A DNA stretch of 63,975 nt, filler included, from Reclinomonas americana ATCC 50394 (Eukaryota): the NCBI GenBank assembly GCA_048213135.1. It is 6 parts of 4 records of this genome, joined end to end, with 100 filler letters (N's around TTAATTAATTAA, not from the genome) between each part and the next. Parts side by side here need not be neighbours in the genome. Positions count along the whole stretch, not along the records: positions 1 to 26,119 come from PS015097.1; 5 more parts are not named here. One strand, 5' to 3'. Position numbers and translations under genes: made by a program. Positions 2,040 to 62,498 of the stretch are shown here, one piece after another. A model generated the notes under the pieces. It made no database searches. It had not been told where the DNA came from and saw only the letters and a list, made by a program, of their open reading frames with translations. Positions within the stretch are counted from its first letter, which is position 1. The number at the start of each line of letters is the position of its first letter.

Positions 2040-4085
2040 TCAGCACCGGAAAAGGACGACCTCGGCATCCTCGACGATGAAACAGCGCAGAACCAGCTCG
2101 GCAAGACATCGTGAATCTACTTCCTCCTCGTCCTCCTGCATCTCCTGCACAGCATGCATGGCCGAGCGCGCGGCGTCGAGTTCGAGACGAGCGAGGCCAC
2201 GCGGCGTGGACCACACTCGCACCGTCCTGTCGTACCCACCCGCACTCACAATGTGCTGACCATCGGGAGAGACGGCCACGGACGAAACCCATCCAGTGTG
2301 TCCCTCCAACTGTCGTACTTCCTCGCCACTCACCAGAGACCACATCCGCACTGTGCTGTCCTCGCTCCCACTCACAATATGCTGACCGCTGGGAGTAACA
2401 GCGACGGCGCGCACCCTTCCAGTGTGTCCCTCCAATCGTCGCACTTGGTCTCCACTTATCNNNNNNNNNNNNNNNNNNNNNNNNNNNNNNNNNNNNNNNN
2501 NNNNNNNNNNNNNNNNNNNNNNNNNNNNNNNNNNNNNNNNNNNNNNNNNNNNNNNNNNNNNNNNNNNNNNNNNNNNNNNNNNNNNNNNNNNNNNNNNNNN
2601 NNNNNNNNNNNNNNNNNNNNNNNNNNNNNNNNNNNNNNNNNNNNNNNNNNNNNNNNNNNNNNNNNNNNNNNNNNNNNNNNNNNNNNNNNNNNNNNNNNNN
2701 NNNNNNNNNNNNNNNNNNNNNNNNNNNNNNNNNNNNNNNNNNNNNNNNNNNNNNNNNNNNNNNNNNNNNNNNNNNNNNNNNNNNNNNNNNNNNNNNNNNN
2801 NNNNNNNNNNNNNNNNNNNNNNNNNNNNNNNNNNNNNNNNNNNNNNNNNNNNNNNNNNNNNNNNNNNNNNNNNNNNNNNNNNNNNNNNNNNNNNNNNNNN
2901 NNNNNNNNNNNNNNNNNNNNNNNNNNNNNNNNNNNNNNNNNNNNNNNNNNNNNNNNNNNNNNNNNNNNNNNNNNNNNNNNNNNNNNNNNNGTCTGGTCGC
3001 TGGCGAGTGGGATGGAGGGTGCGACGGCTGGTGGGACACACCAGCACGGTGATGTCTGTCGCCATCACCCCTGAGGGTCATCACATCGTGAGTGGGAGCT
3101 GGGACTGCATAGTGCGGGTGTGGTCGCTGGCGAGTGGCAAGGAGGTGCGACGGATGGAAGGACACACCGACACGGTGCGGTCTGTCGCCGTCACCCCCGA
3201 TAGTCAGCATATAGTGAGTGGGAGCGGGGACTGCACCGTGCGGGTGTGGTTGCTGGCGAGCGGGGAGGAGGTGCTGCGGTTAGAGGGACATACTGGATGG
3301 GTGCAGTCTGTCGCTGTCACACCTGATGGTCAGCACATCGTAAGCGGGGGCTGGGACTCCACCGTGCGGGTATGGTCGCTNNNNNNNNNNNNNNNNNNNN
3401 NNNNNNNNNNNNNNNNNNNNNNNNNNNNNNNNNNNNNNNNNNNNNNNNNNNNNNNNNNNNNNNNNNNNNNNNNNNNNNNNNNNNNNNNNNNNNNNNNNNN
3501 NNNNNNNNNNNNNNNNNNNNNNNNNNNNNNNNNNNNNNNNNNNNNNNNNNNNNNNNNNNNNNNNNNNNNNNNNNNNNNNNNNNNNNNNNNNNNNNNNNNN
3601 NNNNNNNNNNNNNNNNNNNNNNNNNNNNNNNNNNNNNNNNNNNNNNNTCAGAGCAAGGCGGGAGAAGAAAGGCGGGAAACGGTGACAATCCGGAGCGAGC
3701 AAAATCACACACACTCACACACACACGGAGAATGGCAACCAAGGTGTGAATGTGTGCGCACTTTTGCGTGGTTGGTGTCTGTGCGTGCATTCGTGTGCTT
3801 GTGCATGTGTGTGGTTGTCGTTTGTGTGTTTGTGCATGTGCGTCTCACCACGAGTGGTCGGCACAGATCATTCAGAGTCTCCCTTCCTCAGTGAGGTCCG
3901 TCACCGTCACTCCCGATTGCCAGCACATTGTTGGTGGATGCATGGACAAGACGATTCGAGTGTGGTCTCTGGCGAGTGGCAAGGAGGTGCGACGGCTGGA
4001 GGGACACGCTGGCGGGGTGTTCTCTGTCGCCGTCACTCCTGATGGTCAGCTTATTGTCAGTGGCGGTGGAGACTGTACCGTGCTT
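2040..4085 (-). CDS. 7-blade WD40 protein, A-type paralogue, split over three contigs (2040-2460 on -, 2991-3380 and 3648-4085 flipped onto +); apparent +1 frameshift near 3018
   Basis: MATK exon at 3732-3743(+) and acceptor at 3866/3867. The pieces join base-to-base when flipped (TVL|VWSL and WSL|ISGDQ), giving 7 repeats plus the tail STPRGLARLELDAAR...VLFRC*. There is one extra G in GGGATGGAGGGTGCG relative to paralogues (error or pseudogenisation). Confidence 0.8.
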
Positions 4086-6452
4086 NNNNNNNNNNNNNNN
4101 NNNNNNNNNNNNNNNNNNNNNNNNNNNNNNNNNNNNNNNNNNNNNNNNNNNNNNNNNNNNNNNNNNNNNNNNNNNNNNNNNNNNNNNNNNNNNNNNNNNN
4201 NNNNNNNNNNNNNNNNNNNNNNNNNNNNNNNNNNNNNNNNNNNNNNNNNNNNNNNNNNNNNNNNNNNNNNNNNNNNNNNNNNNNNNNNNNNNNNNNNNNN
4301 NNNNNNNNNNNNNNNNNNNNNNNNNNNNNNNNNNNNNNNNNNNNNGGCGTCGTCCATCCCTCGCCAGGCTGCAACCAGTACCCCACACAACATGCGGTAG
4401 TGTGTGAGCGATGTGGCTTCTTTGATGAGTGTGGGAATCCGAAGACCGACATGGGACTCGTCGATGCGAAATCGGCAGAATGGACATGCGAGGTGGTGGC
4501 TCGAGGTGGTGCTCCGCTGCACCGTGCTGCTGTCCAGCGACACTCTCTTTCGACTGACCTGCATTATCTCTCAACGAGGACTGGCATGTCGGTCTGCTTG
4601 GATACGCAGCTGTGGCCCTGGTGTGCTGATGCCACAGGCACACCCGAGAATCCATGGAACGCCGAGTCTTCGAAACCTCACACCTCATTGGATCGGCCCA
4701 CAGCGAGGCTGATTAGGGGCACACGAGGATGGAACAATGAAGAAAGATAGTCACAGGGAACAGGAGAGGAGCGACCAGTACAGTAGCACGTGCACAGCGA
4801 CGGACGAGGCAGCTGCGTCGTGAGGCTCGCCTCCTCTCACCCAAGTCACAATCAATGCCTCGCGCCTTCAATCACACTCACAGTCGGCCGGTGAATCGTC
4901 TCATGCATGCACTGTGTGGCACGCAACCACGTGTCTTCGCATGCCAGTGACGAGTCCCTTGCCAGCACGCCTGTCACACAGAATTGAGTCAGTCAATCTT
5001 CAAGTCTCACCGACTTACTCCTCAACGCAGATGCAGAACACGTACGCACCAGGCCACGCGCACGTCTGCAGTCTCCCATGGCCATCACCATCATTACTTG
5101 GCGGCGACAGCAGCAACCAAGAAGCGCACATCATCGATCCGCTCCGACTTGCCAGCCGGGATTGAAAACGATCCACCGACCAGGCCACCCATCGCACAGC
5201 ACGGCAAGCATCTGTGCATCCATGGGTAGATTGCCGAGCACGCGTCTGCAGTCTTCCATGGCCACCGGTACCAGCATCATCACTCGACAGAGACGGCGGC
5301 AGCCAAGGTGCACACATCATCGATCTGCTCCGACTTGCCAGCCGGGATTGAAAACGATCCACCGACCAGGCCATCCATCGCACATCACGGCACACATGTG
5401 TACTTCCACCCAGCCACGTTATCCATGACGTGCACGGCCTGCATCATTGAGGTGAGTGGGAGGGAAGGAGGAATGAGAGATCACGAAGAACAGGGCCACA
5501 CCTGCTGAGTGCGCGGTGGGATGCGAGTGGGGAGCCGAGTGAGTGAGTTGACGGTCGACAACGGGCGATGCACAGCACGTCTGCAATCGTCACAGCCGAC
5601 GAAGAACACGCGCTTCCAAGGTGCCTGCATGACGGTGTGCTGTGAGAGATATCTGCCCTGATCTTCTCACTGAGAAACACACCGATAAGCACCTGATACC
5701 AGCACGCGGTTGGTCAAGAGACAAGCCGAGGGATGCTTCTATACACACAACCATCCCGGCAAGGGAGAGGGAGAGAAGAATCAGCATGTAGTCAGGCAAT
5801 CTCACACACTTCGGCATCGGGAAGCTCACCGTGATGGACTGGCAGGATGGCAGTTGGTGCATCTTGAGCAGACCAGAATGCTCGGCCTTGAGCGAGTGCG
5901 GAAAAGAGGGGTGGATGGCTGCGGAAGCAGATAAGCGCACAAAGGAGGGAAACGGTGGAGAAAGAGAGAGACTCTGCAAGGGAGAAAAGGGAGAGCGGAA
6001 TGACAGGCATTTTTCAGAACCGGAAGGAGAATGTCCGCGGCGCACAGGCACCATGGGAAGCAGAGCAGTGATGCCAAGGAAGTGCGCATAAGAAGACGCG
6101 AGGAAATAGACAACGGTGACTCGCTCTCCTGAGGCGCATACATGCACGACGAAAGATGCGCGCACAAGAGACATCACAACAAGACAAAAAGACAACACAG
6201 ACTCCCAAGTGATTCATCGCGCTTGAAAGAGACACGCATACAGAGAGAGACACGCTTCATGGCCACACACTCACATTCACATGACAGGGCAACAAGCACG
6301 CGAGAACAACTCTGCATCATCAACAACGATCGTTCTCTCCTCCTCTGTCGTCCTCTCTTCCCCCACCTGCACCCCCGCGCAAGACACGAAAAAACAACTC
6401 AATGACACCAGCTGCAGCAGCCACCTTCCCTCCCTCCCTTCGACTCACCGAC

Positions 6453-7606
6453 TCAGCATCGGAAAAGGACGACCTCGGCATCCTCGACGATGAAGCAGCG
6501 CAGAACCAGCTCGGGAAGGCACCGTGAATCTTGTTCCTCCTGCATCTCCTGTACAGCCCGCGTGGCCGAGCGCGCGGCGTCGAGTTCGAAGCGAGCAAGG
6601 CCGCGCGGCGTGGACCACACTCTTACGGTCTTGTCCTTGCCACCCGCGCTCACAATGTGCTGACCATCGGGAGAGACGGCCACAGACGACACCCATCCAG
6701 TGTGTTGCTCCAACTGTCGCACTTCCTCGCCACTCGCCAGAGACCATACCCGAACGGTGCTGTCTCCGTACCCGCTAACAATGTGCTCACTATCAGGGGT
6801 GACAGCGACTGACCACACCTTTTCGGTGTGTCCGTCCAGCCGTCGCACCTCCTCCCCACTTGCCAGCGACCACACTCGTACTGTGCAGTCCCAGCTCCCA
6901 CTGATAATGTGCTGACCATCGTAAGTGACGGCAACAGAGTACACCCAGTCAGTGTGTCCCTCCAACCGTCGCACTTCTTCCCCGCTCGCCAGCAACCACA
7001 CCCGCACGGTGTTGTCGAAACTGCCGCTCACAACGTGCTTACCATCGGGAGTGACGACGACAGACAACACCCAGTTAGTGTGTCCCTGCAGCCGTCGGAT
7101 ATCCTTTTCATTCGCCAGCGACCACACCCGGATGGTGCTGTCTCCGCCGCCACTCACGATGTGCTGACCATCGGGGGTGACGACGACACAATACACCCAT
7201 AAAGTGTGTCCCTCCAACCGTCGCACCTCCATCCCACTCTCCAGCAACCACACACGTAGGGTGTTGTCTGCACCTCCACTCACGATGTGCTGGCCATCAG
7301 GGGTGACGGCGACAGATTGCAACCATCCAGTGTGTCCCACCAGCCGTCGCACCTCCTTGCCACTCGCCAGAGACCACACTCGAACGGTACTGTCCATGCA
7401 TCCACCGACAATGTGCTTGCCATCGGGAGTGACGGTGACGGACCTCACTGAGGAAGGGAGACTCTGAATGATCTGTGCCGACCACTCGCGGTGAGGCGCA
7501 TGCACACAGCAACATTCGAAGACACACAAACAATAACCGCGCACATGAACAAGCACACGAATACCAACCACGCAAAGTGCGCATACATTCACACCTTTGT
7601 TGCCAT
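6453..7606 (-). CDS. 7-blade WD40 protein, A-type (exons 7595-7606, 6453-7472; 343 aa)
   Basis: ATG GCA ACA AAG|gt...cag|ATC ATT CAG. Seven repeats of the form GH-x3-V-x-SVAVTPDGQHIVSG-x2-D-x-TVRVW followed by a conserved C-terminal tail. Confidence 0.92.
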
Positions 7607-7699
7607 TCTCCGTGTGTGTGTGTGCGTGTGTGTGATGTGCTCGCTCGGGATTTGTCACCGTTTCCCGTCTTTCTTCTCCCGCCTTGCTCTGAGACGTCG

Positions 7700-9640
7700 T
7701 CCATCCCTCGCCAGGCTGCAACCAGTACCTTACACACCATACAGCAGTATGAGAGCAATGTGGCTTCTTTGATGCGTGTGGGCTTTCGAAGACCGACATG
7801 GGACTCGTCGATGGGAAATCGGCAGGTGACACAAGGTGGCGCTCCACTGCATCGCACTGCTGTCCAGCGACACTCTCTTTCGACTGACCTGCATTATCTC
7901 TCAACGAGGACTGGCATGTCGGTCTGCTTGGATACGCAGCTGTGGCCCTGCACCCGAGAATCAATTGAGCACCGAGTCAGCGACACCTCACACCTCCTTG
8001 GATCGGCCCACAGCGAGGTTGATGAGGTGCACGTCATGATGGTACGACGAAGAAGGAGAGTCACAGGGGACAGGAGAGGAGCGACCAGTACAGTAGCACG
8101 TGCACAGCGATGGACGAGGCAGCTGTGTTGTGAGACACGCCTCCTCTCACCCAAGCCCAAGTCACAATCAATGCCTCGTGCCTTCAATCATACTCACAGT
8201 CGATCGGTGCATTGTCTCATGCACGCACTGTGTGGCACGGAACCACGTGTCTTCGCATGCCAGTGACGAGTCACTTGCCAGCACGCCTGTCACACAGAAT
8301 TGAGTCAGTCAATCTCCAAGTCTCACCAACTTACTCCTCAACGCAGATACAGAACACGTACGCACCAGGCCACGCGCGCATCTGCAGTCTTCCATGGCCA
8401 TCACCATCATTACTTGGCGGCGACAGCAGCAACCAAGAAGCGCACATCATCGATTCGCTCTGACTTGCCAACCGGGATCGAGAACGATCCACCGACCAGG
8501 CCATCCATCGCACATCACGACACGCATGTGTACATCCACCCAGCCACGCTCTCCATGACGTGTACGACCTGCATAATTGAGGTGAGTGGGAGGGAAGGAG
8601 GAAAGTGAGATCACGACGAACAAGGCCACACACCTGCATCGTGTATTGGTGGGATGCGCATGCGAGTGGGGTGCCAAGTGAGTGAGGTGATGACAGCCGG
8701 CAACGGGCAATGCACAGCACGTCTGTCATCGTCACGGCCGACGGCAAGCACGTACTTCCAAAGTGTCTGCATGCCGGTGTACTGTGAGCAAAAGAATGGA
8801 GGAAGGAGAGAGATATCTGCTCTGTCACACGTGGCGAATACACCAATCAGCACCTGATACCAATCAGCACCTGATACCAACACGCGTTTGGGCAAGAAGA
8901 CAGCCGAGGGCCGGTTCTGTGATAGAGAGAGAGAGAAGAGTCAGAATGCAGTCGGGCCATCTCACGTGCACACACTTCGGTATCTAGAAGCTCACCATGA
9001 TGAACTGGCAGGATGGCAGTCGGTGCAACATGAGTAGAGAAGCATGCTCGGCCTTGAGCGTGTGCGGCAAGGAGAGGTGGATGACTGGGGAAGCAGATGG
9101 GCACACAAAGGAGAGAGATGGTGGAGAAAGATAGAGACTCTGTAAGGGACAGAGAGAGTTAGAGAGAGAGCTGCAAGACAGGCATTTTTCAGAGTCGGAA
9201 GGAGAATGTCCGCGGCGCACAGGCACAATGGGAAGCACAGCAGTGATGCCAAAGTGGTGTCAAAGCAAGATACAATGAAACAATCATCGTTGACTCGCTC
9301 TCCTGAGGCGCATACATGCACGACGAAAGATGCGCGCACAACAGACTTCACAACAAGACAAAAAAACGCAAGAGACTCCCAAGTGATTCATCGCACTTGC
9401 ACACAAATGGAGGTGAGAAAGAGACACGCATGCAGAGGGAGACATGCTTCACGCCAGCACACTCACATTCACATGAAAGGGGAACAAGCACGGGAGAGCT
9501 CCTCGTAAACAACAATCTCTGCCTTTCTCTTTCGTCTTCTCTCTTCCCCAACCTCCATCCCGCATGTTCACCAACTCTCCCTCGCAAGACACGAAAAACA
9601 ACTCACAATCACCAGCAGCCACCTTCCCTTCCTTCGACTC
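7700..9640 (-). pseudogene. Decayed multi-exon gene remnant in the long spacer (representative of 5 copies)
   Basis: Recurrent polypyrimidine-cag acceptors and gtgag/gtaag/gtgtg donors on the minus strand flank protein-like blocks (GERVTVVYFLASS.AH.GITALLP; MDGLVGGSFSIPAGKSERIDDVR; YLINLAVGRSKE). Frames are broken differently in each copy. Confidence 0.5.
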
Positions 9641-9646
9641 ACCAAC

Positions 9647-10822
9647 TCAGCACCGGAAAAGGACGACCTCGGCATCCTCGACGATGAAGCAGCGCAGCGC
9701 CAGCTCTGGAAGACATCTTGAATCTTCTTCATCCTCCTGCATTTCCTTCACAGCTCGCATGGCCGAGCGCGCGGCGTCGAGTTCGAGGCGAGCAAGGCCA
9801 CGTGGTGTGGACCACACTCGCACGGTCTCGTCATAGCCACCCGCACTCACAATGTGGAGACCATCGGGAGAGACGGCCACAGACGATACCCATTCAGTGT
9901 GTCCCTCCAACCGTCGTACTTCATCGCCACTCGCCAGAGACCACACCCTAATGGTGCTGTCTCCGCTCCCGCTCACGATATGTTGGCCGTCGGGAGTGAC
10001 GGTGACAGACGACAACCAGTCAGTGTGTCCCTCCAACTGTCGCATTAGCTGTCCACTTGCCAGTGACCATACTCGCGCTGTCTCGTCATAGCTGCCACTG
10101 ACGACGTGCTGACCATCAGGAGTGACGGCGACAGAGTATACCCCTCCGTCGTGTCCCCTCAGCCGCCGCACTTCCTCCCCACTCGCCAGCAACCACACTC
10201 GCACGGTGCTGTCTCCGCTCCCGCTAACAATGTGCTCACTATCAGGGGTGACAGCGACAGACAACACCTTATCGGCGTGTCCTTCCAGCCGTCGCACCTC
10301 CTCCCCACTCGCCAGAGACCACACTCGTATTGTGCAGTCATAGCCGCCGCTGACAATGCGCTGGCAATCGAAAGCGACGGCGACAGACATTGCCGAATTG
10401 GAGTGTCCCTTCAATCGTCGCACTTCTTCTCCACTCTCCAACGACCACACACGTACGGTACAGTCTCCACCTCCACTCACGACATGCTGGCCATCAGGGG
10501 TGATGGCGACAGACAACACCCTTCCAGAGTGTCCCTCCAGTCGTCGCACTTCTTCTCCGCTCGCCAGAGACCACACGCGAATGATTCCGTCCACACATCC
10601 ACCAACAATGTGGTTGCCGTCGGGAGTGACGGCGATGGACCTCACCACATCGAGACTCTGAATGATCTGTGCCGATCATTCGCGGTGAGACGCACACGCA
10701 GCAGCGACATTCGAAGACACGCACATGCACAAACAACTGCCGCACACACGCACGAACACACGAATGCATGCACAGACACCAACCACGCAAAAGTGCGCAC
10801 AAATTCACACCTTTGTTGCCAT
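9647..10822 (-). CDS. 7-blade WD40 protein, A-type (exons 10811-10822, 9647-10666; 343 aa)
   Basis: Same micro-exon and intron structure, 7 WD40 repeats, open frame. Confidence 0.92.
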
Positions 10823-10882
10823 TCTCCGTGCGTTGTGTGTGTGCGCGCGCGTGTGTTCGTGCGTGCGTGCGTGCGTGCGTGC

Positions 10883-10956
<74 letters not shown>

Positions 10957-11768
10957 TAAGTAAAGAGAGAGACGGAAGCACTGATTCATCGGACGGAGCA
11001 TCAACATCAACTCTCGCGCGTGTGTGCGCCTCGTGGTGCCGTCTGTGTCTCAGTGCCCCCTGTCTCTCTGCGTCCTCGTCGCGGTGCTCCCTTCTCAACC
11101 AGCAATGTGAGCGAGATGTTGCGGAATTGAATGTGCATGCATGCCTGCCGAGCCAACTCGACACGCCATGAGCATCAACTCGTCCGAGCCGCGTGTGAGT
11201 CGGGTGGAGAGGCAACAACACACGATTCTGAAAGAGAGCGAAGAGGCAGCACAGTTCGTGAGTGGGGTGCGTCACACCAGTTGTCAGGGCACACACGCAC
11301 GCGTGGGAAATGAGTGCGCAGGGCAAGCGCACTCCCTCCCCGTGGCGTGGGGTGAGAAGAGTGGCCGTCTGAATCGATGCCTAACGCGCTCTCCGTGTTC
11401 ACGCGGTGCCAGTGTGAGAGGGGGGAGGCGGGCGAAGATGCCACTTCAAAAAGCTGCAGGCTGGCATCTCCACTGCGTTCGAATGACAAAGCGACATGAG
11501 GGGTGGGTGGATGGGAGAGCGAGGACTCGCCCAACGCCGAGCAGAACGCGTGTCTATTCATTCCATGGTCTCATCTCAATCGCCCGCACTCATCCACACA
11601 CACCTCGCACCCGCATTCTCTTCTTGCAATCCCACTGCACAGCACTGTATCTGCTTTCCGGCTGCCTGCACTTGGCAAGGCAGTGGAGAAGCACGTGTGA
11701 GGCGGTGTGGCGGTCAACATGAGAGAGTCGCGCAGTGACAGCCATCAGTCATCGTACATTCATTGAGC

Positions 11769-12902
11769 TCACTCCGTCCAGCACCGTCCAGGCGCACGGC
11801 GTTCAATCATCTCTGCATCCTCCAACACGAAACACCGCAGCACAACATCGACGAGGATCCAGTCACGATCATCTTCGGCGAGAAGCTCGTTGACGGCCAA
11901 CACGGCCAGTCGTGCGGCCGCAATCTCTTGCCGCGCCAGCCCACTCGGCGAAGACCACACTCGGATCGTTTTATCCTGACTGCCACTCACGATGTGCTGG
12001 CCATCGGCAGAGACTGCAACAGACCACACCGAGCCAGTGTGCCCTTCTAAACGTCGCACTTGTTGCCCGCTCACCACCGACCACATGCGCACCGTGTTGT
12101 CCACTCCACCAATCAAAACGTGCTGGCCGTCGGGAGTGACGGCAACAGACAGCACTGCACCGTTGTGCCCCTGCACCCGTCGCACTTCTCCTCCAGTTGC
12201 CAGCGACCACATTCGTACCGTATGGTCATCGCCCCCGCTCACAACATGCTGACCGTCGGGAGAGACGGCGACAGACCACACTTTTCCAGCGTGCCCTTCC
12301 AGTCGCCGCACTTCCTTTCCACTCGCGACAGACCACACCCGAATTGTGCTGTCCCAGCTGCCACTGACAATGTGGTGACCGTCCGGCGTGATGGCGACAG
12401 AGAGCACCATGCCAGAGTGCCCCATCAACCGTCGCACAAGTGCCCCATTCGCCAGTGACCACACCCGCACTGTCTTGTCCTCACTGCCGCTCGCAACGTG
12501 CAGGCCATCGGGAGTAATGGCGACAGACAACACCCAGTCGATGTGTCCCTTCAACCGTCGCACTTCCTCTCCACTCGCCAGTGACCACACTCTCACTGTG
12601 TTATCCATACCGCCAGTCACAACGCGCTGGCCGTCAGGAGTGACAGTGACAGACATCACCCATCCAGCGTGTCCCACCAACCGCCACACCTCCTTGCCAC
12701 TCGCCAGTGACCACACTCGCACCGATCCATCATCGCCGCCGCTCACGATGCGCTGGCCATCGGGAGTGATGGCGACACATCGCACCGCGTCTGTGTGACC
12801 CCGCAAGACCTATGTCACACGATGAGACATGTACATGTACATGTATACGTAGAGCAGCCACACACGCATCCCTCGCGTGTGTGAGCGCACCTTGGTTGTC
12901 AT
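11769..12902 (-). CDS. 7-blade WD40 protein, B-type (exons 12891-12902, 11769-12809; 350 aa)
   Basis: ATG ACA ACC AAG|gt...tag|GTC TTG CGG GGT CAC. Seven repeats and a divergent tail SPSGLARQEIAAARLAV...LVDVVLRCFVLEDAEMIERRAPGRCWTE*. Confidence 0.92.
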
Positions 12903-15056
12903 TGGAACAGAAGAAGAATAAAGGACTCTAATGTCCTCTCTTTGTAGGTTCGCTTCTGTTGACTTTCTCTCTTCGGACACCTGGTCGGTACTCTACAGTG
13001 ATGGTAGTCACGAAGAGTCTATCCTCACGCGCGCGCGTGTGTGTTATGTGTGTTTGTGATTTGCTCGCTCGGGATTGTCACCGTTTCCCGCCTTTCTTCT
13101 CCCGCCTTGCACTGAGACGTCGTCCATCCCTCGCCAGGCTGCAACCAGCACCCCACACAGCATGCGGTAGTGTGGCTTTGTTGATGCTTGTGGGCTTTTG
13201 AAGACCGACATGGGACTTGTCGATGGGAAATCGGCAGAACGGACATGGAGGGTGGTGGTGGCTCGAGGTGGCGCTCCGCTGCATCGCGCTGCTGTCTGAC
13301 GACATTCTTGTTTATACTGACCTGCATTATCTCTCAACGAGGATTGGAATGTCGGGCTGCTTGGATATGCAGCTGTGGTCCAGCTGTGCTGATGCCACGG
13401 CACACCCGATCGCGAGAATCCAATGAGCAGCGAGTCAGCGACACCTCACACCTCCTTGGATCGATCCACAGCGAGGTTGATGAGGCGCACACGAGGACGG
13501 TACGATGTAGAAAAAGAGCCACACGGAACAAGAGAGGAACGGCCAGCACAGCAGCACAACGATGGAATAGACAGTCGTGTCGTGAGGCTCGCCTCCTCTC
13601 ACCCAACTCACAATCAATGCCTCGTGCCTTCAATCACACTCACATTCGGTCGGTTGAATCGTCTCATGTATGTACTGTGAGGCACAGAACCACGTGTCTT
13701 CGCATGCCAGTCACTTGCCAGCACGCCTATGTTCAGATCACACACACAGAACTGAGTCAGTCAATCTCCATGTCTCACCAACTTGCTCCTCAACGCAGAT
13801 GCAGAACACGCCCGCACCATGCGTTGCTGGCCGATCACGCGTCTGCAGTCTTCCGTGGCCACCACCATCATCACTCGGCAGAGACGGCGGCAACCAAGGC
13901 GCACACCATCGATCCGCTCCGACTTGCCAGCCGAGGATTGAAAACGATCCACCGACCAGGCCACCGGCGCACATCACGACACGCCACGCTTTCCGTGGAA
14001 TGCACGGCCTGCATAATTGAGGTGAGTGGTAGGGAAGGAGGAAAAGAGAGATCACGACGAACAGGGTCACACAACTGCTGAGTGCATGGTGGGATTCGAG
14101 TGGGGAGCCGAGTGAGTGAGGTGACGGTCGACAACGGGCAATGCACAGCACGCCTGTCATCGCCACGACATGCTTTCCATGGTCTCTGCATGCCGGTGTG
14201 CTGTGGGCAAAGAATGGAGGACGGGGAGAGAAATCTGCTCTGTCTCACTGACAAACACACCGATCAGCACCTGATACAAACACGCGTTTGTCAAGAGGCA
14301 AGCCAAGAGATGCTCACACAACCATCCTGCAAGGGAGAGAAGGAGCAGAGTCAGTATGCAGGTATGCCACCTCACACACTTCGGCATCGGGAAGCTCACC
14401 GTGATGGACTGGCAGGACGGCAATCGGAACACGGTGAGCGGACCAGCATGCTCGGCCTCGAGCGTGTGCGGCAAGGAGGGGCAGATTACTGGGGAATCAT
14501 ATAAGCGCACAACGGAGGGAGACGGCGGAGAAAGAGAGAGACTCTGCAAGGGAGAAAAAAGGGGAGAGCGGAATGACATGCATTCTTCGCAGTCGGAAGG
14601 AGAATGTCCGCAGCGCACGTGCACAATGGGAAGCAGATCTAGAGCAGTGATGCCAAAGTGGTGCACAAAAGAAGACGCGAGGAAATAGACAACGGCGATT
14701 CGCTCTCCTGCGGCACACACATGGCGACGAAAGATGCACGCACAATAAACATCACAACGAGACAGAAAGACAAAACAGACACCCAAGTGCTTCATCGCGC
14801 TTGCATACACTAGCTGAGGTGAGAAGGAGACACGCATACAGAGGGAGACACGCTTCACTACCTCTCTCTCACTCACATGATAGGGCAACAAGCACGGGAG
14901 AACAATTCATCACCATCAACAACGACCTCTCTCTCTTCCTCCTGTCATCCTCTCTTCCCCCACCTGCATCCCGCATGATCACCCACTCTCCCTCGCAGGT
15001 CACGAACAACAACTCACAATAACCAGCAGCCACCTTCCCTCTCTCAACTCACCTTC

Positions 15057-16229
15057 TCAGCATCGGAAAAGGACGACCTCGGCATCTTCGACGATGAAAC
15101 AGCGCAGAACCAGCTCGGGAAGACATCGTGAATCTTCTTCCTCCTGCATCTCCTGCACAGCCAGCATGGCCAAGCGCGCGGCGTCGAGCTCGAGACGAGC
15201 AAGGCCACGCGGTGTGGACCACACTCGCACGCTATTGTCTTGACCACCCGCACTCACAATGTGCTGACCATTGGGAGAGACGGCCACCGACGACACCCAT
15301 CCTGTGTGACCATCCAACCGCCGCACTTCCTCGCCACTTGCCAGAGACCATACCCGAACGGTGCTGTCTCCGCACCCGCTCACGATATGTTGGCCGTCGG
15401 GAGTGACGGTGACACAATACACCCATGAAGTGTGTCCCTCGAAACGTCGCACTTGGTCTCCACTCATCAGCGACCATACTCGCAGGGTGCGGTCTCCACC
15501 CCCGCTCACGATGTGCTGACCATCAGGGCTGACGGTGACACAATACACCCATCCAGTGTGTCCCCGCAGCCGTCGCACTTCCTCCCCGCTCGCCAGCAAC
15601 CACACTCGCACGGTGCTGTCTCCGCTCCCGCTAACAATGTGGTGACTATCAGGGGTGACAGCGACTGACCACACCTTATCGGCGTGTCCTTCCAGCCGTC
15701 GCACCTCCTCCCCGCTCGCCAGAGACCACACTCTCACTGTGTTATCGTAGCTGCCGCTGACAATGTGCTGGCCATCGAAGGCGACGGCGACAGACCACAC
15801 CTTATCATCGTGTCCCTCTAACCGTCGCTCTTCATCGCCACTCACCAGCGACCACACACGCACAGTACAGTCTCCACACCCACTCACTATCTGCTGGCCA
15901 TTGGGGGTGACGGCGACAGACCACACCGGACCAGTGTCTCTCTCCAGTCGTCGCTCTTCTTCTCCGCTCGCCAAAGACCACACGCGAATCGTCTTGTCCA
16001 TGCATCCACCAACAATGTGCTGGCAATCGGGAGTGACGGCGACGGACCTCACTGAGGAAGGGAGACTCTGAATGATCTGCGTCGATCATTCGCGGTGAGG
16101 CGCACACGCACAGCAACGTTGGAAGACACAAACACACTAACAACAACCACACACATGCACGAGCACACGAATGCACGCACAGACACCAACCACGCGAAAG
16201 TGCGCACACATTCACACCTTCGTTGCCAT
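15057..16229 (-). CDS. 7-blade WD40 protein, A-type (exons 16218-16229, 15057-16076; 343 aa)
   Basis: Same structure, 7 repeats, open frame. Confidence 0.92.
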
Positions 16230-18271
16230 TCTCCGTGGTGTGTTATGTGTGTGATTTGCTCGCTCGGGATTGTCATCGTTTCCCGCCTTTCTTCTCCCGC
16301 CTTGGTCTGAGACGTCCCGCATCCCTCGCCACGCTGCAACCAGTACGCCACACAGCATGCGGCAGTGTGAGCGACGTGGCTTCTTTGATGCGTGTGAGCT
16401 TTCGAAGACCGACATGGGACTCGTCTATGCGAAATTAAAATCGACAGAATGGACATGCAAGGTTACGTGGTGGTGGTGTGACGAGGTGAAGCTCCACTGC
16501 ACCGTGCTGCTGACCAGCGACACTCTCTTTTGACTGACCTGCATTATCTCTCAACGAGGACTGGCATGTCGTGCTGCTTGGATACGCAGTTGTGGCCCAG
16601 TTGTGAGAATCCATCGAGCAACCGAGTCAGCGACACCTCACACCTCGTAGGATCGGCCCACAGCAAGGTTGACGAGGTGCACGCCATGATGATACAATAA
16701 AGAAAGAGAACCACAAGGAACAAGAGAGCAGCGACCAGCATAGCAGCTCAGCGATGGAAGAGGCAGCTGTGTCGTGAGACTCGCCTCCCATCACCCAAAT
16801 CACAATCAATGCCTCGTCCCTTCAATCACACTCACAGTCAGTCGGTGAATCGTCTCATGCATGTACTGTGAGGCACGAAACCACGTGTCTTCGCATGCCA
16901 GTCACTTGCCAGCACGCCTGTGTTCAGATCACACACAGGCGGAGTCAGTCTGTCTCCCAACATGTTCCTCGAGCTCAACGCAGATGCAGAACACGCACGC
17001 ACTGTGTTGCAGGCCGAGTACGCGTCTAAAGTCACCCATGGCCATCACCATCATTACTTGGCGGCGACAGCAGCAACCAGCGTGCGCACATCATCGATCC
17101 GCTTCGACTTGCCAGCCGGGATTGAAAACGATCCACCGACCAGGCCATCCATCGCACATCACGGCACGCATGTGTACACCCACCCAGCCATGCACTCCTT
17201 GACGAGCACGGCCTGCATAATTGAGGTGAGTGGGAGAAAAAGAGGAAAGAAAGATCACGCCGAACAAGGCCACACACCTGCATCGTGCATCGGTGGCATT
17301 CAGGTGTGGAGCCGACTGAGTGAGGTGACAGCCGGCAGCGGGCGATGCACAGCACGCCTGCAATCATTACGGAACAACAACGAGGAGCACGTGCTTCCAA
17401 GGTGTCTGCATATCGGTGCGCTGTGAGCAAAAGGAATGGTAGGAAGGAGAGAGAAATCTGCTCGGTCTCACAGATGAACACACCGATCAGCATCTGGTAT
17501 CAACACGCGTTTGGGCAAGAGGCAAGGCGAGGGATGCTTCTACACATACATCCATCCTACGAGAGAGAGAGAGAGCAGAGTCAGCATGCTGGTGTGTCAC
17601 CGCACACACTTCGGTGTCGAAATGCACACCATGATGGACTGGCAGGATGGCAGTCGGAACACGGTGAGCGGACCAGCAGCTCGACCTCGAGCGTGTGCGG
17701 GAAGGAAGGGCGGATTACTGGGGAATCAGATGAGCGCACAAAGGCAGGGAGATCGCGGAGAAAGAGATGAACTCTGCAGGAGGCAGGAAAAAGAGAGCGG
17801 AATGACAGGCATTTTTCAGAACCGGAAGGAGAATGTCCGCGGCGCACAGGCACCATGGGAAGCAGAGCAGTGATGCCAAGGAGATGTGCAAAGTAAGACG
17901 CGAGGAAACAAAAATCGGTGACTCGCTCTCATGAGGCACACACATGCACGATGAAACATGCACGCACAACAGACATCACAACGAGGGGAAATGAATCACA
18001 GACTCCCAAGCGATTCTTCGAGTTTGCACACAAAATGGAGGTAAGAAAAAGGCAAGCATGCAGAGGAGACGTGCTTCACTACCTCTCTCTCACTCACATC
18101 ATAGGGCAACAAGCACAGAGAACAATTCTGCATTATCCACGTCGACTTCTCTCCTCTCGTCTGTCGTCCTCTCTTCCCCACCCGCACCCACATGATCACC
18201 CACTCTCCCTCGCAAGACGCGAAAACAACTCACGATCGCCAGCAGCCACCTTCCCTCCCTTCGACTCACAC

Positions 18272-19451
18272 TCAGCACCTGAAAAGAACAACCTCGGCAT
18301 CCTCGACGATGAAACAGCGCAGAACCAGCTCGGGAAGACATCGTGAATCTACTTCTTCCTCCTGCATCTCCTGCACCGCTCGCAGGGCCGAGCGAGCGGC
18401 GTCGAGTTCAAGGCGAGCAAGGCCACGCGGTGTAGACCACACTCTCACGGTCTTATCAAGGCCACCGGCACTCACAATGTGGAGACCATTGGGAGAGACG
18501 GCCACAGACGACACCCATCCAGTGTGTCTCTCCAACTGTCGCACTTCCTCGCCACTTGCCAGAGACCATACCCGAATGGTGCAGTCCCCACTTCCACTCG
18601 CAATATGCTGACCGTCGGGAGAGACGGCGATCGATTGTACAAATGCAGTGTGTCCCCCCAACCGTCTCACCTCCTCCCCACCTGCCAGTGACCACACTCG
18701 CACTGTGTTGTCCCTACTGCCACTCACGATGTGCTGACCATCGGGGGTGACGGCGACAGAGTATACCCAGCCAGTGTGTCCTTCCAACCGCCACACCTCT
18801 TCCCCGCTCGCCAGCAACCACACTCGCACGGTGCAGTCCCCGCTCCCGCTCACGATGTGCTGACTATCAGGGGTGACGGCGACTGACCACACATGTCCAG
18901 TGTGTCCTTCCAGCCGTCGCACCTTCTCCCCACTCACCAGAGACCACACTCGTACTGTGCAGTCCCAGCTCGCGCTAACAATGTACTGACCATCGGGGGT
19001 CACGACGACACAATACACCCATCCAGTGTGTCCCACCAGCCGTCGCACCTCCATCCCACTCTCCAGCAACCACACACGTAGGGTGTTGTCTCCACCTCCA
19101 CTCACGATGTGCTGATTATCAGGGGTGACGGCGACACAATACACCCATCCAGTGTGTCCCACCAGCCGTCGCACCTCCTTGCCACTCGCCAGTGACCACA
19201 TTCGAACGGCGCTGTCCAAGCATCCACCAACAATGTGCTTGCCGTCGGGAGTGATGGTGACGGATCCCACTACTGCGAGACTCTGAATGATCTGCCGATC
19301 ACTCGCGGTGAGACGCACACACAGCAGCGACATTCGAAGACACGCACAACAACACAAACAACAACCGCACACACGCAGAAGCACACGCCGCGAATGCACG
19401 CATAGACACCAACTACGCAAAGTGCGCATAAATTCACACCTTTGTTGTCAT
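18272..19451 (-). CDS. 7-blade WD40 protein, A-type (exons 19440-19451, 18272-19291; 343 aa)
   Basis: MTTK micro-exon, 7 repeats, conserved tail. Confidence 0.92.
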
Positions 19452-19474
19452 TCTCCGTGTGGTGTGCGTGAGAC

Positions 19475-19506
<32 letters not shown>

Positions 19507-20408
19507 TGCGTGTGTGTGTATGTATGTATGTGCGTGTGTGTGTATGTATGTATGTGCGTGTGTGTGTGTGTTTGTGTGAATAGAAGCACCAACTCTGATT
19601 CATCGGACGGAGCATCAACATCCTCCTTTCTCTCTCGCGCGCGTGCGTCTCGCGGCGCTGTTTGTGTCTCAGTGCCCCCTGTCTCTCTGCGTCCTCGTCG
19701 CGGTGCTCCATTCTCAACCTGCGATGTAAGCGAGATGTTGCGGCGTTGAATGTGCATGTGTGCATGCCGAGCCAGTTCAAACTCGACACGCCATGAGCAT
19801 CAACTCCCTCCGAGCCATGCGTGTGAGTCGGGTGGAGAGGCAACACCACACGATTCAGAAAGAGAGCGAAGAGGCAGCGCAGTTCGTGAGTGGGTGCGTC
19901 ACACCAGCTGTCGGGGCACACGCACGCGCGGGAAACGAGTGTGCTGCATGGCAAGTGCACTCCCTCCCCGTGGCGTGTGTAACGAGAAGGGTGGCCGTCT
20001 GAATCGATGCCTGGCGCGCTCTCCGTGTTCACGCACGCGGTGCCAGTGTGAGAGGGGAGAGGCGGAATGATGCCACTGGCCACTGCTTCAAAAAGCGACA
20101 GGCTGGCATCCCCGCCGCGTTCGAATGACAGGGCGACATGAGGGGTGGGTGGGTGGGAGAGCGAGGACTCGCCCAACGCCGAGCAGAACGCGTGTCTGTT
20201 CATTCCATGGTCTCATCTCAATCGCCCACACACATCCATCGTTCTCGGCATGCTCTTCTTGCAATCCCACTGCACTGCGCTGTGACGTATCTGCTTTCCG
20301 GCTCCCTCCACTTGGCAAGGCAGTGGAGAAGCACGTGTGAGGCGGTGTGGCGGTCAACAGGAGAGAGTCGCGCAGTGACAGCCATCAGTCATCGTACAAT
20401 CATTGAGC

Positions 20409-20700
20409 TCACTCCGTCCAGCACCATTCAGGCGCACGGCGTTCAATAACCGCTGCATCCTCCAGCACGAAGCACCGCAGCACAACGTCGACCAGGATCC
20501 AGTCACGATCATCTTCGTCGACAAGCACCTCGTTGACGGCCAGCACGGCGGATTGTGCGGCCGCAAGCTCATGCCGCGCGCGCCAGCCCACGCGGCGTGG
20601 ACCACACACGGATCGTTTTATCCGCACTCCACGATGTGCTGGCCATCGGGAGTAACGACGACAGAGTATACCCATCCAGTGTGTCCCCCCCAACCGTCCA
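20409..20700 (-). pseudogene. Truncated, frameshifted B-type WD40 copy (last repeat plus tail only)
   Basis: GHTGWVYSVVVTPDGQHIV, ADKTIRVWSTPRGLAR and ELAAAQSAVLAVNE...RCFVLEDAAVIERRAPEWCWTE lie in different frames. No upstream repeats or MATK exon are present. Confidence 0.85.
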
Positions 20701-22429: not shown

Positions 22430-23640
22430 TGGCGGACAAGGGGGAGAGGGGGGAGAGGGGTGCAGAGACAGGCAGAGTACAGGCAAGAGGAGGATGAAGA
22501 CGGAAGGGGAGAGCGAAGCAGAAGAGAAGGAAGAGAAAGGAGAAGAGAAGGGAGAGGCGCGAAGACGGAAGGGAAAGGGAAGACGCGAAGGAAGGGAAAG
22601 GGAAAGAGAAGGAAGAGGCAGAGACAACAATAGAGCAATGATTCAACGAGGGAGAACACGGAAGGGAAAGGGAAGACGCGAAGGAAGAGAAAGGGAAAGA
22701 GAAGAGGCAGAGTACAGGCAAGAGGAGGATGAAGACGGAGGGGGAAAAGAAGACGCGAAGGAAGAGAAGGCAGAAGAGAATGAAGAGGCAGAGACAACAA
22801 CAGAGCAATGGTTCAACGGGGGAGAAAACGGAAGGGGAAAAGAAGATGAGAAGGAAGAGAAAGCAGAAAGCAGAAGAGAATGAAGAGGCAGAGACAACAA
22901 CAGAGCGATGATTCAACGAGGGAGAACACGGAAGGGAGAGGGAAGATGCGAAAGAAGTGAAGAAAGCAGAAGGGGAAAAGAGGCAGAGCCAACAACAGAA
23001 CGGACGGAAGGGAAAGGGGAGACACGAAAGAAGGAAAAGCAGAAGAGAATGAAGAGGCAGAGACAACAGAGCGATGATTCAACGAGGATGAAAATAGATG
23101 GGAAAGAGAAGACGAGAAGAAAGAGAAAGCAGAAAGCAGAAGAGAATGAAGAGGCAGAGACAACAACAGAGCGATGATTCAATGAGGGAGAAGATGGAAG
23201 GGAAAGGGAAGAATAGAAAGTGAAAGAGAAGGAAGAGGAAGAGACAACAGAGCGATGATTCAACGAGGGTGAAGACAGAAGAGAAAGGGAAGACGCGAAG
23301 GAAGGGAAAGCAGAAAGGGAAAAGAGGCAGAGCCAACAGAGCGACTATTCAACGAGGATGAAGACGGAATGGGAAAGGGAAGACGCGAAGAAAGAGAAAA
23401 AAGAGGGGGGCGGAGGGGGAAGAGAGAATGAAGACGGAAGGGGAAAAGAAGACGCGAAAGAAGAGAAGGCAGAAGGGGAAAAGAGGCAGAGCCAACAACA
23501 GAACGATGATTCAACGAGGGTGAAGACAGAAGAGAAAGGGAAGATGCGAAGGAAGAGAAAGCAGAAGAGAAGGAAGAGGCAGAGACAACAACTGAGCGAT
23601 GATTCAACGAGAGTGGAGAGGAAAGAGAGAGAGGCGATTG
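22430..23640. repeat. GA-rich minisatellite, about 10 degenerate copies
   Basis: Core gaggcagagacaacaacagagcgatgattcaacgagg recurs throughout. Confidence 0.85.
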
Positions 23641-25023: not shown

Positions 25024-25159
25024 TGCTATTGCAATCGATGGTGGTTATTGTGAAGGAAGAAAACGACAAGCAGCGTGTCGCAATGCCGCGTGCGGTCTGC
25101 ATGCAATACGCTCCTGTTTGACGAGCCAGGCATGACCGGATCAATGGTGAGAAACGGAG

Positions 25160-26119
25160 AGCGAGAGAGGGGAAGAAGGAACAATGCAACAGGGACAACT
25201 CACAGAGACGTCCGAGCCTTGCGATGCATGCACCGGCGATGGTGGGAGACAGGGAGAGAGAGACAGCTCTCCATTTGAGCGGGATCACCGATCGTGCTGC
25301 TGAACAGACACAATGAATGAATGAGTGAGCGAGGAGAGCGGGGGAGGGAGGGAGAAGGAACAATGCAACGTTAACAGGGACAACTCACAGAGACGTCCGA
25401 GCCTTGCGATGCATGCACTGGCGATGGGGGAGACAGGGAGAGAGAGACAGCTCTCCATTTGAGCAGGATCACGGATCGTGCTGCTGAACAGACACAATGG
25501 ATGAGTGAGTGAGGAGAGCGAGAGAAGGGGGAAGAAGGAACAATGCAACAGGGACGTCGACAACTCACAGAGACGTCCGAGCCTTGCGATGCATGCATCG
25601 CGATCGGCGATGGTGAGACAGCTGCAGGGAGAGAGACAACTCTCCATTTGAGCAGGATAACGGATCGTGCTGCTGAACAGACACAATGGATGAATGACTG
25701 AGCGAGGAGAGCGAGGGAGGGGAAGAAGGAACAATGCAACAGGGACAACGTTAACTCACAGAGACGTCCGAACCTTGCGATGCATGCACCGGCGATGGTG
25801 GGAGACAGGGAGAGAGAGACAGCTCTCCATTTGAGCAGGATCACGGATCGTGCTGCTGAACAGACACAATGGATGAATGACTGAGCGAGGAGAGCGAGGG
25901 AGGAGAAGAAGGAACAATGCAACACAGGCAACTCACACAGACGTCCGAACCTTGCGATGCATGCACCGGCGATAGTGGGGACAGGGAGAGAGACAACTCT
26001 CCATTTGAGCAAAATCATGGATCGTGCTGCTCAACAGACACAATGAATGAATGAGTGAGTGAGGAGCGAGGGAGGGGGAGAAGGAACAATGCAACTGGGA
26101 CAACTCACAGAGACGTCCG
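25160..26119. repeat. About 180-bp tandem repeat, more than 5 copies, running into the scaffold end
   Basis: aacaatgcaac recurs near 25180, 25359, 25539, 25730, 25913 and 26085. Confidence 0.92.
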
Positions 26120-26219
26120 NNNNNNNNNNNNNNNNNNNNNNNNNNNNNNNNNNNNNNNNNNNNTTAATTAATTAANNNNNNNNNNNNNNNNNNNNNNNNN
26201 NNNNNNNNNNNNNNNNNNN
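26120..26219. other. Artificial scaffold linker (N-TTAATTAATTAA-N); also at 33013-33112, 40362-40461, 47426-47525, 62399-62498
   Basis: Identical 100-nt blocks with a six-frame stop cassette in the centre. Confidence 0.97.
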
Positions 26220-40361: not shown

Positions 40362-40607
40362 NNNNNNNNNNNNNNNNNNNNNNNNNNNNNNNNNNNNNNN
40401 NNNNNTTAATTAATTAANNNNNNNNNNNNNNNNNNNNNNNNNNNNNNNNNNNNNNNNNNNNAACCCGGCCTGCCTCTCTCTTTCTCTCTCTGTTTTTGTT
40501 TTGCTTTCTTTCCTGGGGTTATGAACAATGCGCCCAGGCGTGTAGTAATGAGAATGAACGAAAAGAGAAAACAACAGCCAGTGTTCATCAACAATAACTA
40601 TAGAGAG

Positions 40608-47416: not shown

Positions 47417-47529
47417 GAGGAGTAGNNNNNNNNNNNNNNNNNNNNNNNNNNNNNNNNNNNNNNNNNNNNTTAATTAATTAANNNNNNNNNNNNNNNNNNN
47501 NNNNNNNNNNNNNNNNNNNNNNNNNCGTA

Positions 47530-62309: not shown

Positions 62310-62498
62310 CGTGTCGTTGTTCGACTAGTAGTAGTCGTACCCTTTACCCCGTTTCCCGTTCCTTCCTTTCCTTCCTACCTACCTACCGAAGGGCGGTANN
62401 NNNNNNNNNNNNNNNNNNNNNNNNNNNNNNNNNNNNNNNNNNTTAATTAATTAANNNNNNNNNNNNNNNNNNNNNNNNNNNNNNNNNNNNNNNNNNNN

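What the first reader, a model, noticed from the sequence alone, without database searches (positions are those of the whole stretch)
6453..19291. Hypervariability concentrated at the propeller top-face positions
Seen: in the consensus VRRLEGH-x-x-X-V-X-SVAVTPDGQHIVSG-x-X-D-x-TVRVWSLASGEE the scaffold is largely conserved. In contrast, GH+3 takes W/K/R/S/G/P/H/F/A/M, GH+5 takes Q/Y/L/W/S/M/R, and the residue before D takes A/G/F/W/Y/R/D/M/E/V/Q/K/L. Known: these match the WD40 top-face ligand-binding hotspots (R1-2, R1, D-1), the same class of sites reported under positive selection in fungal HNWD repeats. Inference: diversifying selection on binding specificity.
Basis: partly seen in the sequence, partly recalled or inferred. 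Interest (0 to 1): 0.72.

Follow-up and report, generated by a model that had tools for sequence, protein, structure and literature searches.

The report
Tandem WD40 genes, variable binding face
Five neighbouring genes of a protist each make a small ring-shaped binding protein with a shared tail, and the few residues on the ring's gripping face change modestly faster than silent DNA, a pattern already known from fungal self/non-self receptors and common in repetitive proteins of this fold.

Summary
Each has a predicted 4-codon first exon, one intron, seven WD40 blades and a ~55-aa orphan helical tail; that gives 35 repeats, and 42 only with gap-broken pieces at 2040-4085. My codon models give omega 1.4-2.0 at these sites against 0.1-0.6 for the scaffold, and 0 of 77 and 0 of 55 neutral simulations reached the signal. 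It weakens to p about 0.02-0.05 with double-hit or rate-variation terms, and no single site passes FEL. Blades are mosaic (PHI p 0.002-0.07), but only 72% identical within a gene. There is no NACHT, so these are not NLRs. The same columns vary in 17 of 20 unrelated repetitive WD40 proteins. The tail's only sequence relatives are a Reclinomonas americana EST and one unnamed WD40 protein. The scan has already noted this family many times on other pieces of this genome. Best reading: a moderately selected repertoire of stand-alone binding adaptors with unknown ligands.

The parts
6453..7472 (-). Gene A1, main exon: 7 WD40 blades + tail + stop (343-aa protein with exon 1)
   Evidence: model pLDDT 89, 7-blade propeller
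7473..7606 (-). A1 intron 1 (7473-7594, GT-AG, 122 nt) and predicted first exon ATG-x-x-AAG (7595-7606, MATK)
   Evidence: motif conserved in all six copies that have a 5' end, absent from 21001-63975; not confirmed by RNA
6456..6617 (-). A1 C-terminal tail (~54 aa), predicted helix-acidic loop-helix
   Evidence: pN/pS 0.034/0.268 over A0-A4; homologues P0121, P0122
9647..10822 (-). Gene A2 (exon 1 10811-10822, intron 10667-10810, WD40+tail exon 9647-10666; 343 aa)
11769..12902 (-). Gene B1, divergent subtype (exon 1 12891-12902, intron 12810-12890, exon 11769-12809; 350 aa; 61% identical to A1)
15057..16229 (-). Gene A3 (exon 1 16218-16229, intron 16077-16217, exon 15057-16076; 343 aa)
18272..19451 (-). 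Gene A4 (exon 1 19440-19451, intron 19292-19439, exon 18272-19291; 343 aa)
2040..2460 (-). A0 3' piece: last blades + tail, cut by an N gap (outside the finding's coordinates)
2991..3380 (+). A0 middle piece: about three blades between two N gaps, opposite orientation, one 1-base irregularity near its start
3732..4085 (+). A0 5' piece: exon 1 (3732-3743), intron (3744-3866), blades 1-2, cut by an N gap; opposite orientation
20409..20690 (-). B2 relic: part of one blade, broken by frameshifts, plus a B-type tail; 5' part missing
4346..6452 (.). Duplicated non-coding spacer (similar copies at 1-2039, 7610-9646, 13040-15056, 16240-18271), 13-17% different between copies
   Evidence: no codon periodicity, 111 of 159 gaps not multiples of 3; no Rfam match

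Best explanation
A tandem cluster of paralogous genes for stand-alone 7-bladed WD40 propellers with a constant two-helix tail, in a flagellated protist that is probably a jakobid. Shown from sequence or calculation: the gene anatomy (the intron is predicted, not seen in RNA); scaffold and tail under purifying selection; the four top-face positions (R1-2, R1, D-1, D+1) and GH+2 change about 1.4-2 times faster than silent sites; blades are exchanged between genes in whole or in part. Inferred: gene duplication plus gene conversion supply new blade combinations, and selection favours new top-face chemistry, so each protein grips a different target. The proteins lack a signal peptide, so the targets are intracellular, most plausibly foreign proteins of viruses or bacteria. 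The tail hands the bound target to one shared cellular partner, as the adaptor box of a substrate receptor does; a ubiquitin ligase is the likeliest single guess, at about 25%, and is untested. The confidence refers to 'diversifying selection on the binding face of a family of adaptors', not to the identity of partner or ligand.
For: Entropy ranks D-1, R1, D+1, R1-2 first to fourth of 42 columns; 32 distinct four-residue combinations among 35 blades. Own MG94-type models on the ML tree: M1a/M2a LRT 16.0 (omega 1.98), M7/M8 37.0, M8a/M8 16.1 (omega 1.79). M8a/M8 holds under GY94, F1x4, a scaffold-only tree and A genes only (LRT 23.1, 15.9, 18.3, 9.7). Four-site class: omega 1.96 (approx. interval 1.57-2.46), LRT 21.4; 1.77 and 1.61 with double hits. 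With ML trees: all 42 repeats 1.95/1.71, internal 30 repeats 1.62/1.40, internal 25 repeats 1.73/1.49 without/with double hits. Null with omega 1 and two trees: 0 of 77 reached LRT 14.2 (max 4.4). Null with gamma site rates and double hits: 0 of 55 reached LRT 17.7 (max 9.1). Tree-free: in 8 disjoint closest pairs hot-site pN 0.274 against scaffold pS 0.165 and scaffold pN 0.046. Silent sites are not slowed relative to non-coding DNA: blade-7 pS 0.217, tail pS 0.268, spacer 0.13-0.17. Loop columns 1-7 and 25-28 have omega 0.07-0.86, so not all surface positions are free. Hot sites are 29% W/Y/F against 0% at three other variable columns. Mosaicism: PHI p 0.002-0.035 on scaffold sites; A1 blade 6 is 90% identical to blade 4 of A2 and A3; A2/A3 blade 6 are 94% alike in one half but 83% overall. 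All five reading frames are intact. Tail: pN/pS 0.13, expressed in a Reclinomonas americana EST, and kept on a very divergent propeller, P0122.
Against: Effect size is small and model-dependent. M8a/M8 drops to LRT 3.6 (omega 1.39) with double hits, and to 0.75 for internal repeats on a FastTree tree (6.5 on an ML tree). Two half-specific trees give omega 1.38, LRT 3.8. Gamma site rates give p 0.014-0.019. No site is significant in FEL with its own synonymous rate, and the pooled hot class gives alpha 1.43, beta 1.94, LRT 0.89. Counted hot-site pS is about equal to hot-site pN (few sites, inflated by multi-base codons). The synonymous rate around the b-c turn is 1.7 times average, which leaves D+1 near 1 locally. 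The 12 terminal blades alone are not significant (LRT 2.9). PHI on all sites gives p 0.074. The pattern is generic for repetitive WD40s (Hu et al. 2017, PMC5587647, passage). No ligand, partner or immune role was shown.
Confidence: 0.62

Rival explanations
1. Relaxed constraint: the top-face loop residues are simply the positions a repetitive propeller tolerates best, drift at about the neutral rate, and look faster because of local mutation-rate variation, multi-base changes and short conversion tracts.
For: Same columns vary in 17 of 20 unrelated repetitive WD40s. FEL finds no significant site. Pooled alpha-free test LRT 0.89. Double-hit rate is non-zero even on the scaffold (0.04, LRT 7.8). 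Site-rate variation is real (LRT 5-7).
Against: Neutral simulations with recombination or with rate variation plus double hits never reached the observed statistic (0 of 77, 0 of 55). The pooled alpha is not significantly different from 1 (LRT 1.4 or less). Aromatic enrichment and only 1 proline in 136 hot residues. Other loop columns are constrained.
Confidence: 0.22
2. Stable sub-functionalisation: each paralogue gained a fixed endogenous partner in an early burst of adaptation and is now conserved; there is no continuing arms race or immune role.
For: Blades 1 and 7 are position-specific and most blades match the same position in other A genes. Repeats are old (72% nt identity within genes). 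Neighbours found are housekeeping genes.
Against: Even the closest blade pairs differ at hot sites (7 of the 8 closest disjoint pairs). There is out-of-register blade exchange and a relic copy, B2, as in birth-and-death families.
Confidence: 0.1
3. The propellers are detached sensor modules or donor cassettes for NACHT-WD40 receptors elsewhere in the genome: they either work in trans with an NLR or mainly supply repeats to it by gene conversion.
For: Same four sites as HNWD. Unchecked earlier notes describe NLR genes beside similar arrays on other pieces of this genome; leads only.
Against: No NACHT among 147 ORFs scanned at 21.4-64 kb. A strongly conserved start exon and tail argue for independent proteins rather than silent cassettes.
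Confidence: 0.06

Closest known systems
WD40 sensor domains of Podospora anserina HNWD/NWD NLRs (HET-D, HET-E, HET-R); Paoletti et al. 2007 PMC1805685, Ament-Velasquez et al. 2025 PMC12222747, PMC13449251 (passages read)
   Same: 126-nt intronless repeats; the same four selected positions (codons 7, 9, 25, 27 = my columns 17, 19, 35, 37), plus neighbours 10 and 11 of the later seven-site list matching my columns 15 and 16; repeat exchange between genes.
   Different: No NACHT or HET domain; exactly seven blades per gene in all five intact genes; repeats 60-82% identical within a gene rather than 80-100%; diversity spread over tandem paralogues; weaker selection signal; orphan C-terminal tail.
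Moderately/highly repetitive WD40 proteins (Hu et al. 2017, PMC5587647, abstract and passages; PDB 5yzv, 2ymu)
   Same: Consensus-like blades with DHSW tetrads; fold match to 5yzv with rmsd about 1 A; the paper reports high diversity at the hotspot sites of such repeats.
   Different: Here a eukaryotic tandem gene family with a shared tail, and a measured omega above 1; internal identity falls in the moderately repetitive class.
WD40-SOCS-box (WSB1/2) and F-box-WD40 substrate receptors of cullin-RING ligases (recalled, not fetched)
   Same: Architecture of one propeller plus a short helical module; the tail has an LPELVLRCF stretch with an F-box-like hydrophobic pattern (likeness judged from memory).
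   Different: No Pfam F-box or SOCS match at E <= 10, no PDB sequence match; the LP is not kept in the B subtype or P0122.
Reclinomonas americana EST protein EP00694_P005839 (P0121) and unnamed Logan protein P0122
   Same: Same tail; P0121 is 70% identical over the tail and carries a near-consensus last blade; P0122 has a B-type tail.
   Different: P0121 is a partial, uncharacterised EST product; P0122 has a divergent, non-repetitive propeller (31% identity to B1).

Membership tests
WD40 beta-propeller | Seven WD40 repeats forming a closed propeller | tested here: met
   PF00400 with 7 stretches in each of 5 proteins; model with 27 strands of 3 or more residues, pLDDT 89; Foldseek TM 0.95 to 5yzv
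WD40 beta-propeller | DHSW tetrad | tested here: met
   D 35/35, W 35/35 (both alignment anchors), H 30/31, S/T 30/35
HNWD/NWD fungal NLRs | Central NACHT domain | tested here: not met
   Predicted proteins are 343-350 aa, fully accounted for by 4 aa + 7 blades + tail; spacer is non-coding; no NACHT in 147 other ORFs scanned. Rests on a gene model without RNA support.
HNWD/NWD fungal NLRs | N-terminal effector domain (HET or other) | tested here: not met
   N-terminus is M(A/T)TK followed directly by the propeller
HNWD/NWD fungal NLRs | High internal conservation (80-100% repeat identity) | tested here: not met
   Mean within-gene nucleotide identity 0.72, range 0.60-0.82; amino-acid 0.63-0.70
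HNWD/NWD fungal NLRs | Four top-face codons under positive selection | tested here: met
   Same positions; pooled omega 1.4-2.0; weak under the strictest models and not significant site by site
HNWD/NWD fungal NLRs | Repeat exchange within and between genes | tested here: met
   PHI p 0.002-0.035 on scaffold sites (0.074 on all sites); out-of-register and half-blade matches
HNWD/NWD fungal NLRs | Non-self recognition triggering cell death | not testable with these tools
   needs experiment
Highly-repetitive WD40 (Hu et al. 2017, cut-off 0.7) | Six repeats all pairwise >= 0.7 identical | tested here: not met
   Minimum pairwise identity among blades 2-7 is 0.52-0.60, which meets the 0.4 cut-off of the moderately repetitive class; ungapped approximation of the paper's method
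F-box or SOCS-box substrate receptors | Sequence match to an F-box or SOCS-box profile | tested here: not met
   7 tails, Pfam at E <= 10: none (one chance RRM hit); PDB sequence profile searches none. Short divergent boxes can be missed.
F-box or SOCS-box substrate receptors | Fold likeness of the tail | tested here: inconclusive
   Tail model pLDDT 67, two-helix hairpin; only generic hairpin matches
F-box or SOCS-box substrate receptors | Binding to Skp1 or Elongin B/C | not testable with these tools
ESCRT-I steadiness box (Vps23 core) | Profile similarity to the SB hairpin | tested here: not met
   hhalign of 9 tails against 29 Asgard PF09454 matches: probability 0.06; PF09454 not hit. Eukaryotic Vps23/Vps37 profiles were not compared directly.
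ESCRT-I steadiness box (Vps23 core) | Fold likeness | tested here: inconclusive
   2caz_D Z 7.5, rmsd 1.6, 53 aligned, 6% identity; 4 ESCRT-I entries in the top 50, all within the range of unrelated hairpins

The most novel reading that the evidence does not exclude
These genes are one cluster of a genome-wide innate-immune repertoire in a jakobid: many stand-alone WD40 receptors, diversified by blade shuffling and selection at the HNWD sites, all plugging through a new two-helix domain into one effector (for example a cullin-type ubiquitin ligase), to recognise and destroy proteins of giant viruses or intracellular bacteria without any NLR ATPase.
Probability: 0.22. Interest if true: 0.8.

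Novelty: new variant of a known kind. Interest (0 to 1): 0.46.

Why it matters
How free-living protists recognise intracellular enemies is largely unknown. If the reading holds, a deep-branching eukaryote has arrived independently at the HNWD way of diversifying a WD40 surface, but in small stand-alone proteins with an undescribed constant tail. The tail is a single, cheap handle: one pull-down would name the pathway. The flagged observation alone, variable top-face residues, is not surprising; it is published for HNWD and for repetitive WD40s in general.

Tried and rejected
One long repeat protein or a single array: rejected; stops, tails and spacers separate five genes. Spacer as N-terminal exons or a second gene: rejected; no codon periodicity and frame-breaking indels, no Rfam family. 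Own-genome search: no genome is held, so family size could not be counted. Sequencing runs: none was listed. Tail homologue searches: none among near-length proteins; 1 hit among 1.84 billion representatives; 1 hit among longer proteins, 8000 candidates scored; none in metagenome contigs; the 2 viral loci are one phage DNA polymerase end, a chance match; ESM Atlas gave nothing usable; Pfam and PDB sequence searches gave nothing. Tail fold searches gave only generic hairpins. ESCRT-I steadiness-box idea, prompted: no profile similarity to Asgard members and no match of the tail profile in 2 Asgard genomes; dropped. Tail homodimer prediction: no verdict (score 0.01, uncertain fold). The result that internal repeats alone show no signal was partly a tree artefact (LRT 0.75 on a FastTree tree, 6.5 on an ML tree); both are reported. 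Literature: searches listed no paper on such a family in jakobids; the library lacks most subscription papers and I read no supplements.
Full report
Setting. The window is eukaryotic draft sequence: GT-AG introns, microsatellites and N gaps. Pfam hits in the rest of the window include an AMP-binding enzyme, a nucleoside hydrolase, FAM221, a PCI domain, a prismane protein and CC2D2A/CEP76-type domains (147 ORFs of 95 aa or more scanned after a low-complexity filter). CC2D2A suggests a flagellate (recalled knowledge). No genome is held for the window.

Anatomy. The flagged stretch holds five minus-strand ORFs, each with seven Pfam WD40 stretches at 42-residue spacing (43 for the last blade of A genes) and a tail of about 55 residues. 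Four are A-type (74-82% identical to A1) and one is B-type (61%). Upstream of each lies a 12-nt exon (ATG, two codons, AAG) followed by an 81-148-nt GT-AG intron; splicing gives 343-350-aa proteins starting M(A/T)TK. The motif occurs six times in the cluster and never in 21001-63975. It is a prediction; no RNA was available. A sixth gene, A0, lies in three pieces between N gaps at 2040-4085, two of them inverted, probably by scaffolding. A relic, B2, at 20409-20690 has a frameshifted part-blade and a tail. The block 5220-12044 matches 13817-20686 at 80%. The spacers differ by 13-17%, show no codon periodicity and have mostly frame-breaking indels.

Observation. The coordinates hold 35 repeats; 42 needs the A0 pieces. 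Wu et al. 2012 define R1-2, R1 and D-1 as top-face hotspots (PMC3419727, passages). Paoletti et al. 2007 report HNWD codons 7, 9, 25, 27 under positive selection, in the d-a loop and the b-c turn on top of the propeller (PMC1805685, passages); the spacing equals my columns 17, 19, 35, 37. The seven-position list in PMC12222747 (passages) adds my columns 15 and 16. In the AlphaFold model of A1 (pLDDT 89) these residues fall just before or at the start of strand a and between strands b and c (residue numbers against the DSSP). I had no coordinates, so 'one face' rests on this strand register and standard WD40 geometry. The model matches 5yzv at about 1 A rmsd. The pattern is generic: of 120 database hits, 52 had five or more canonical repeats, 20 of these had internal identity of 0.6 or more, and 17 of the 20 had at least three of the four columns in their top eight. 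Hu et al. 2017 say the same of highly repetitive WD40s (PMC5587647, passage).

Selection. No codeml was at hand, so I wrote MG94/GY94-type site models (M0 branch lengths, rescaled). On the 35 repeats: M1a/M2a LRT 16.0, M7/M8 37.0, M8a/M8 16.1, positive class omega 1.8-2.0 at 12-15% of sites, with columns 16, 17, 19, 35, 37 (and 12 under M8) assigned to it. The M8a/M8 result held under other frequency models, a scaffold-only tree and A genes only, but fell to 3.6 with double-hit mutations and to 0.75 for 30 internal repeats on a FastTree tree; on ML trees the latter was 6.5, and all 42 repeats gave 18.4. Fixing the four HNWD sites as a class gave omega 1.96 (LRT 21.4), 1.77 with the scaffold's double-hit rate and 1.61 with a free one, against scaffold classes of 0.17 and 0.58. 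With gamma-distributed site rates omega was 1.75, p 0.014-0.019. Nulls at omega 1 never reached the observed statistic: 0 of 77 with two trees (30 repeats, blade 1s excluded) and 0 of 55 with rate variation and double hits. Against this, half-specific trees gave omega 1.38, LRT 3.8; FEL found no significant site; and freeing the hot class's synonymous rate gave alpha 1.43, beta 1.94, LRT 0.89. Tree-free counts show hot-site pN above scaffold pS in every divergence bin, but hot-site pS is of similar size. Silent sites are not slower than non-coding DNA. Verdict: positive selection is likely, modest, and not proven site by site.

Shuffling. PHI-type tests give p 0.002-0.035 on scaffold sites and 0.074 on all sites. 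A1 blade 6 is 90% identical to blade 4 of A2 and A3, and several blades match one partner in one half only. Blades 1 and 7 stay position-specific. Mean identity within a gene (0.72) equals that between genes (0.72) and is below same-position identity among A genes (0.80). This fits duplication with occasional conversion, not the tight within-gene homogenisation of HNWD (80-100%; PMC13449251, passages).

Tail. It is more conserved than the propeller scaffold (pN/pS 0.034/0.268) and is predicted as helix, acidic loop of variable length, helix (pLDDT 67). Its only relatives found are P0121, a Reclinomonas americana EST product 70% identical over the tail, and P0122, an unnamed divergent WD40 protein with a B-type tail. 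P0121 shows that such a tail is transcribed in frame with WD40 blades and suggests that the window is from a jakobid (inference). No F-box, SOCS-box or other family matched. Fold searches returned generic hairpins, including four ESCRT-I entries (PMC10936438 describes this steadiness-box hairpin; passages), but a profile comparison with 29 Asgard PF09454 matches was negative.

Mechanism. Most likely each gene encodes an intracellular adaptor: a variable top face binds a target, and a constant tail links it to a shared partner. Duplication and conversion supply variants, and selection keeps new top faces. Anatomy, purifying selection on scaffold and tail, mosaicism and the raised omega are shown by calculation; ligand, partner and immune role are inferred. 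Confidence 0.62, against 0.22 for relaxed constraint, 0.10 for old fixed sub-functionalisation and 0.06 for NLR-linked cassettes.

Known and new. It works like the HNWD sensor surface but is not an NLR. Variable hotspots in repetitive WD40s are published. What I did not find in print (searches; listings and abstract openings only) is a tandem family of stand-alone, selected propellers with this tail in a jakobid. Earlier notes of this scan describe the same family on many other pieces of this genome; they are unchecked and not independent support. I reached the gene-cluster and selection reading before opening them. Several call the genes intronless; at this locus a short first exon and an intron are predicted. 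Interest 0.46.

Noticed in passing
window 4346-6452 and its copies: The non-coding spacer keeps donor-like (GTGAG/GTGTG), branch-point-like and polypyrimidine-AG signals on the minus strand, including a donor a few bases after the A-gene stop and a 144-nt exon-like block; it may be a spliced 3' UTR or non-coding RNA.
   Followed up: partly
window 11769-11775 and 20409-20415: The stop codon of the B-type genes lies inside a donor-like GTGAG, so the B proteins may be spliced to a further exon.
   Followed up: no
repeat columns 31-40 versus 13-22: The synonymous rate is about 1.7 around the b-c turn but about 0.5 around R1-2/R1; unexplained; short conversion tracts hitch-hiking with D-1 are one possibility.
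   Followed up: partly
window 5220-12044 / 13817-20686: A segmental duplication (80% identity) spanning A1-A2-B1 and A3-A4-B2, yet blade similarities do not follow it (A2 blade 4 and A3 blade 4 are 96% identical).
   Followed up: partly
window 48456-49752 (+): Split gene for a prismane (hybrid-cluster) protein, a family mostly known from prokaryotes and anaerobic protists (recalled).
   Followed up: no
window 50076-56023 (-): Exons matching CC2D2A N-terminal C2 and CEP76-peptidase-like domains: a ciliary transition-zone gene.
   Followed up: no
window 29862-31819 (-), 36643-37424 (+), 37872-38174 (-), 43387-44235 (-): Exons of an AMP-binding enzyme, an inosine-uridine nucleoside hydrolase, a FAM221 protein and a PCI-domain protein.
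   Followed up: no
window 25156-26104 and 22438-23631: A 183-bp tandem repeat (5.2 copies, 86% matches) running into a gap, and a purine-rich degenerate repeat array.
   Followed up: no
window 26120-26219, 33013-33112, 40362-40461, 47426-47525, 62399-62498: Pairs of 44-N runs around a 12-base insert (an all-frame-stop palindrome at the one site read): an assembly linker, so the pieces are scaffolded.
   Followed up: no
P0122: An unnamed Logan protein with a divergent non-repetitive WD40 propeller and a clear B-type tail; the tail is older than the repetitive blades or was moved as a module.
   Followed up: partly
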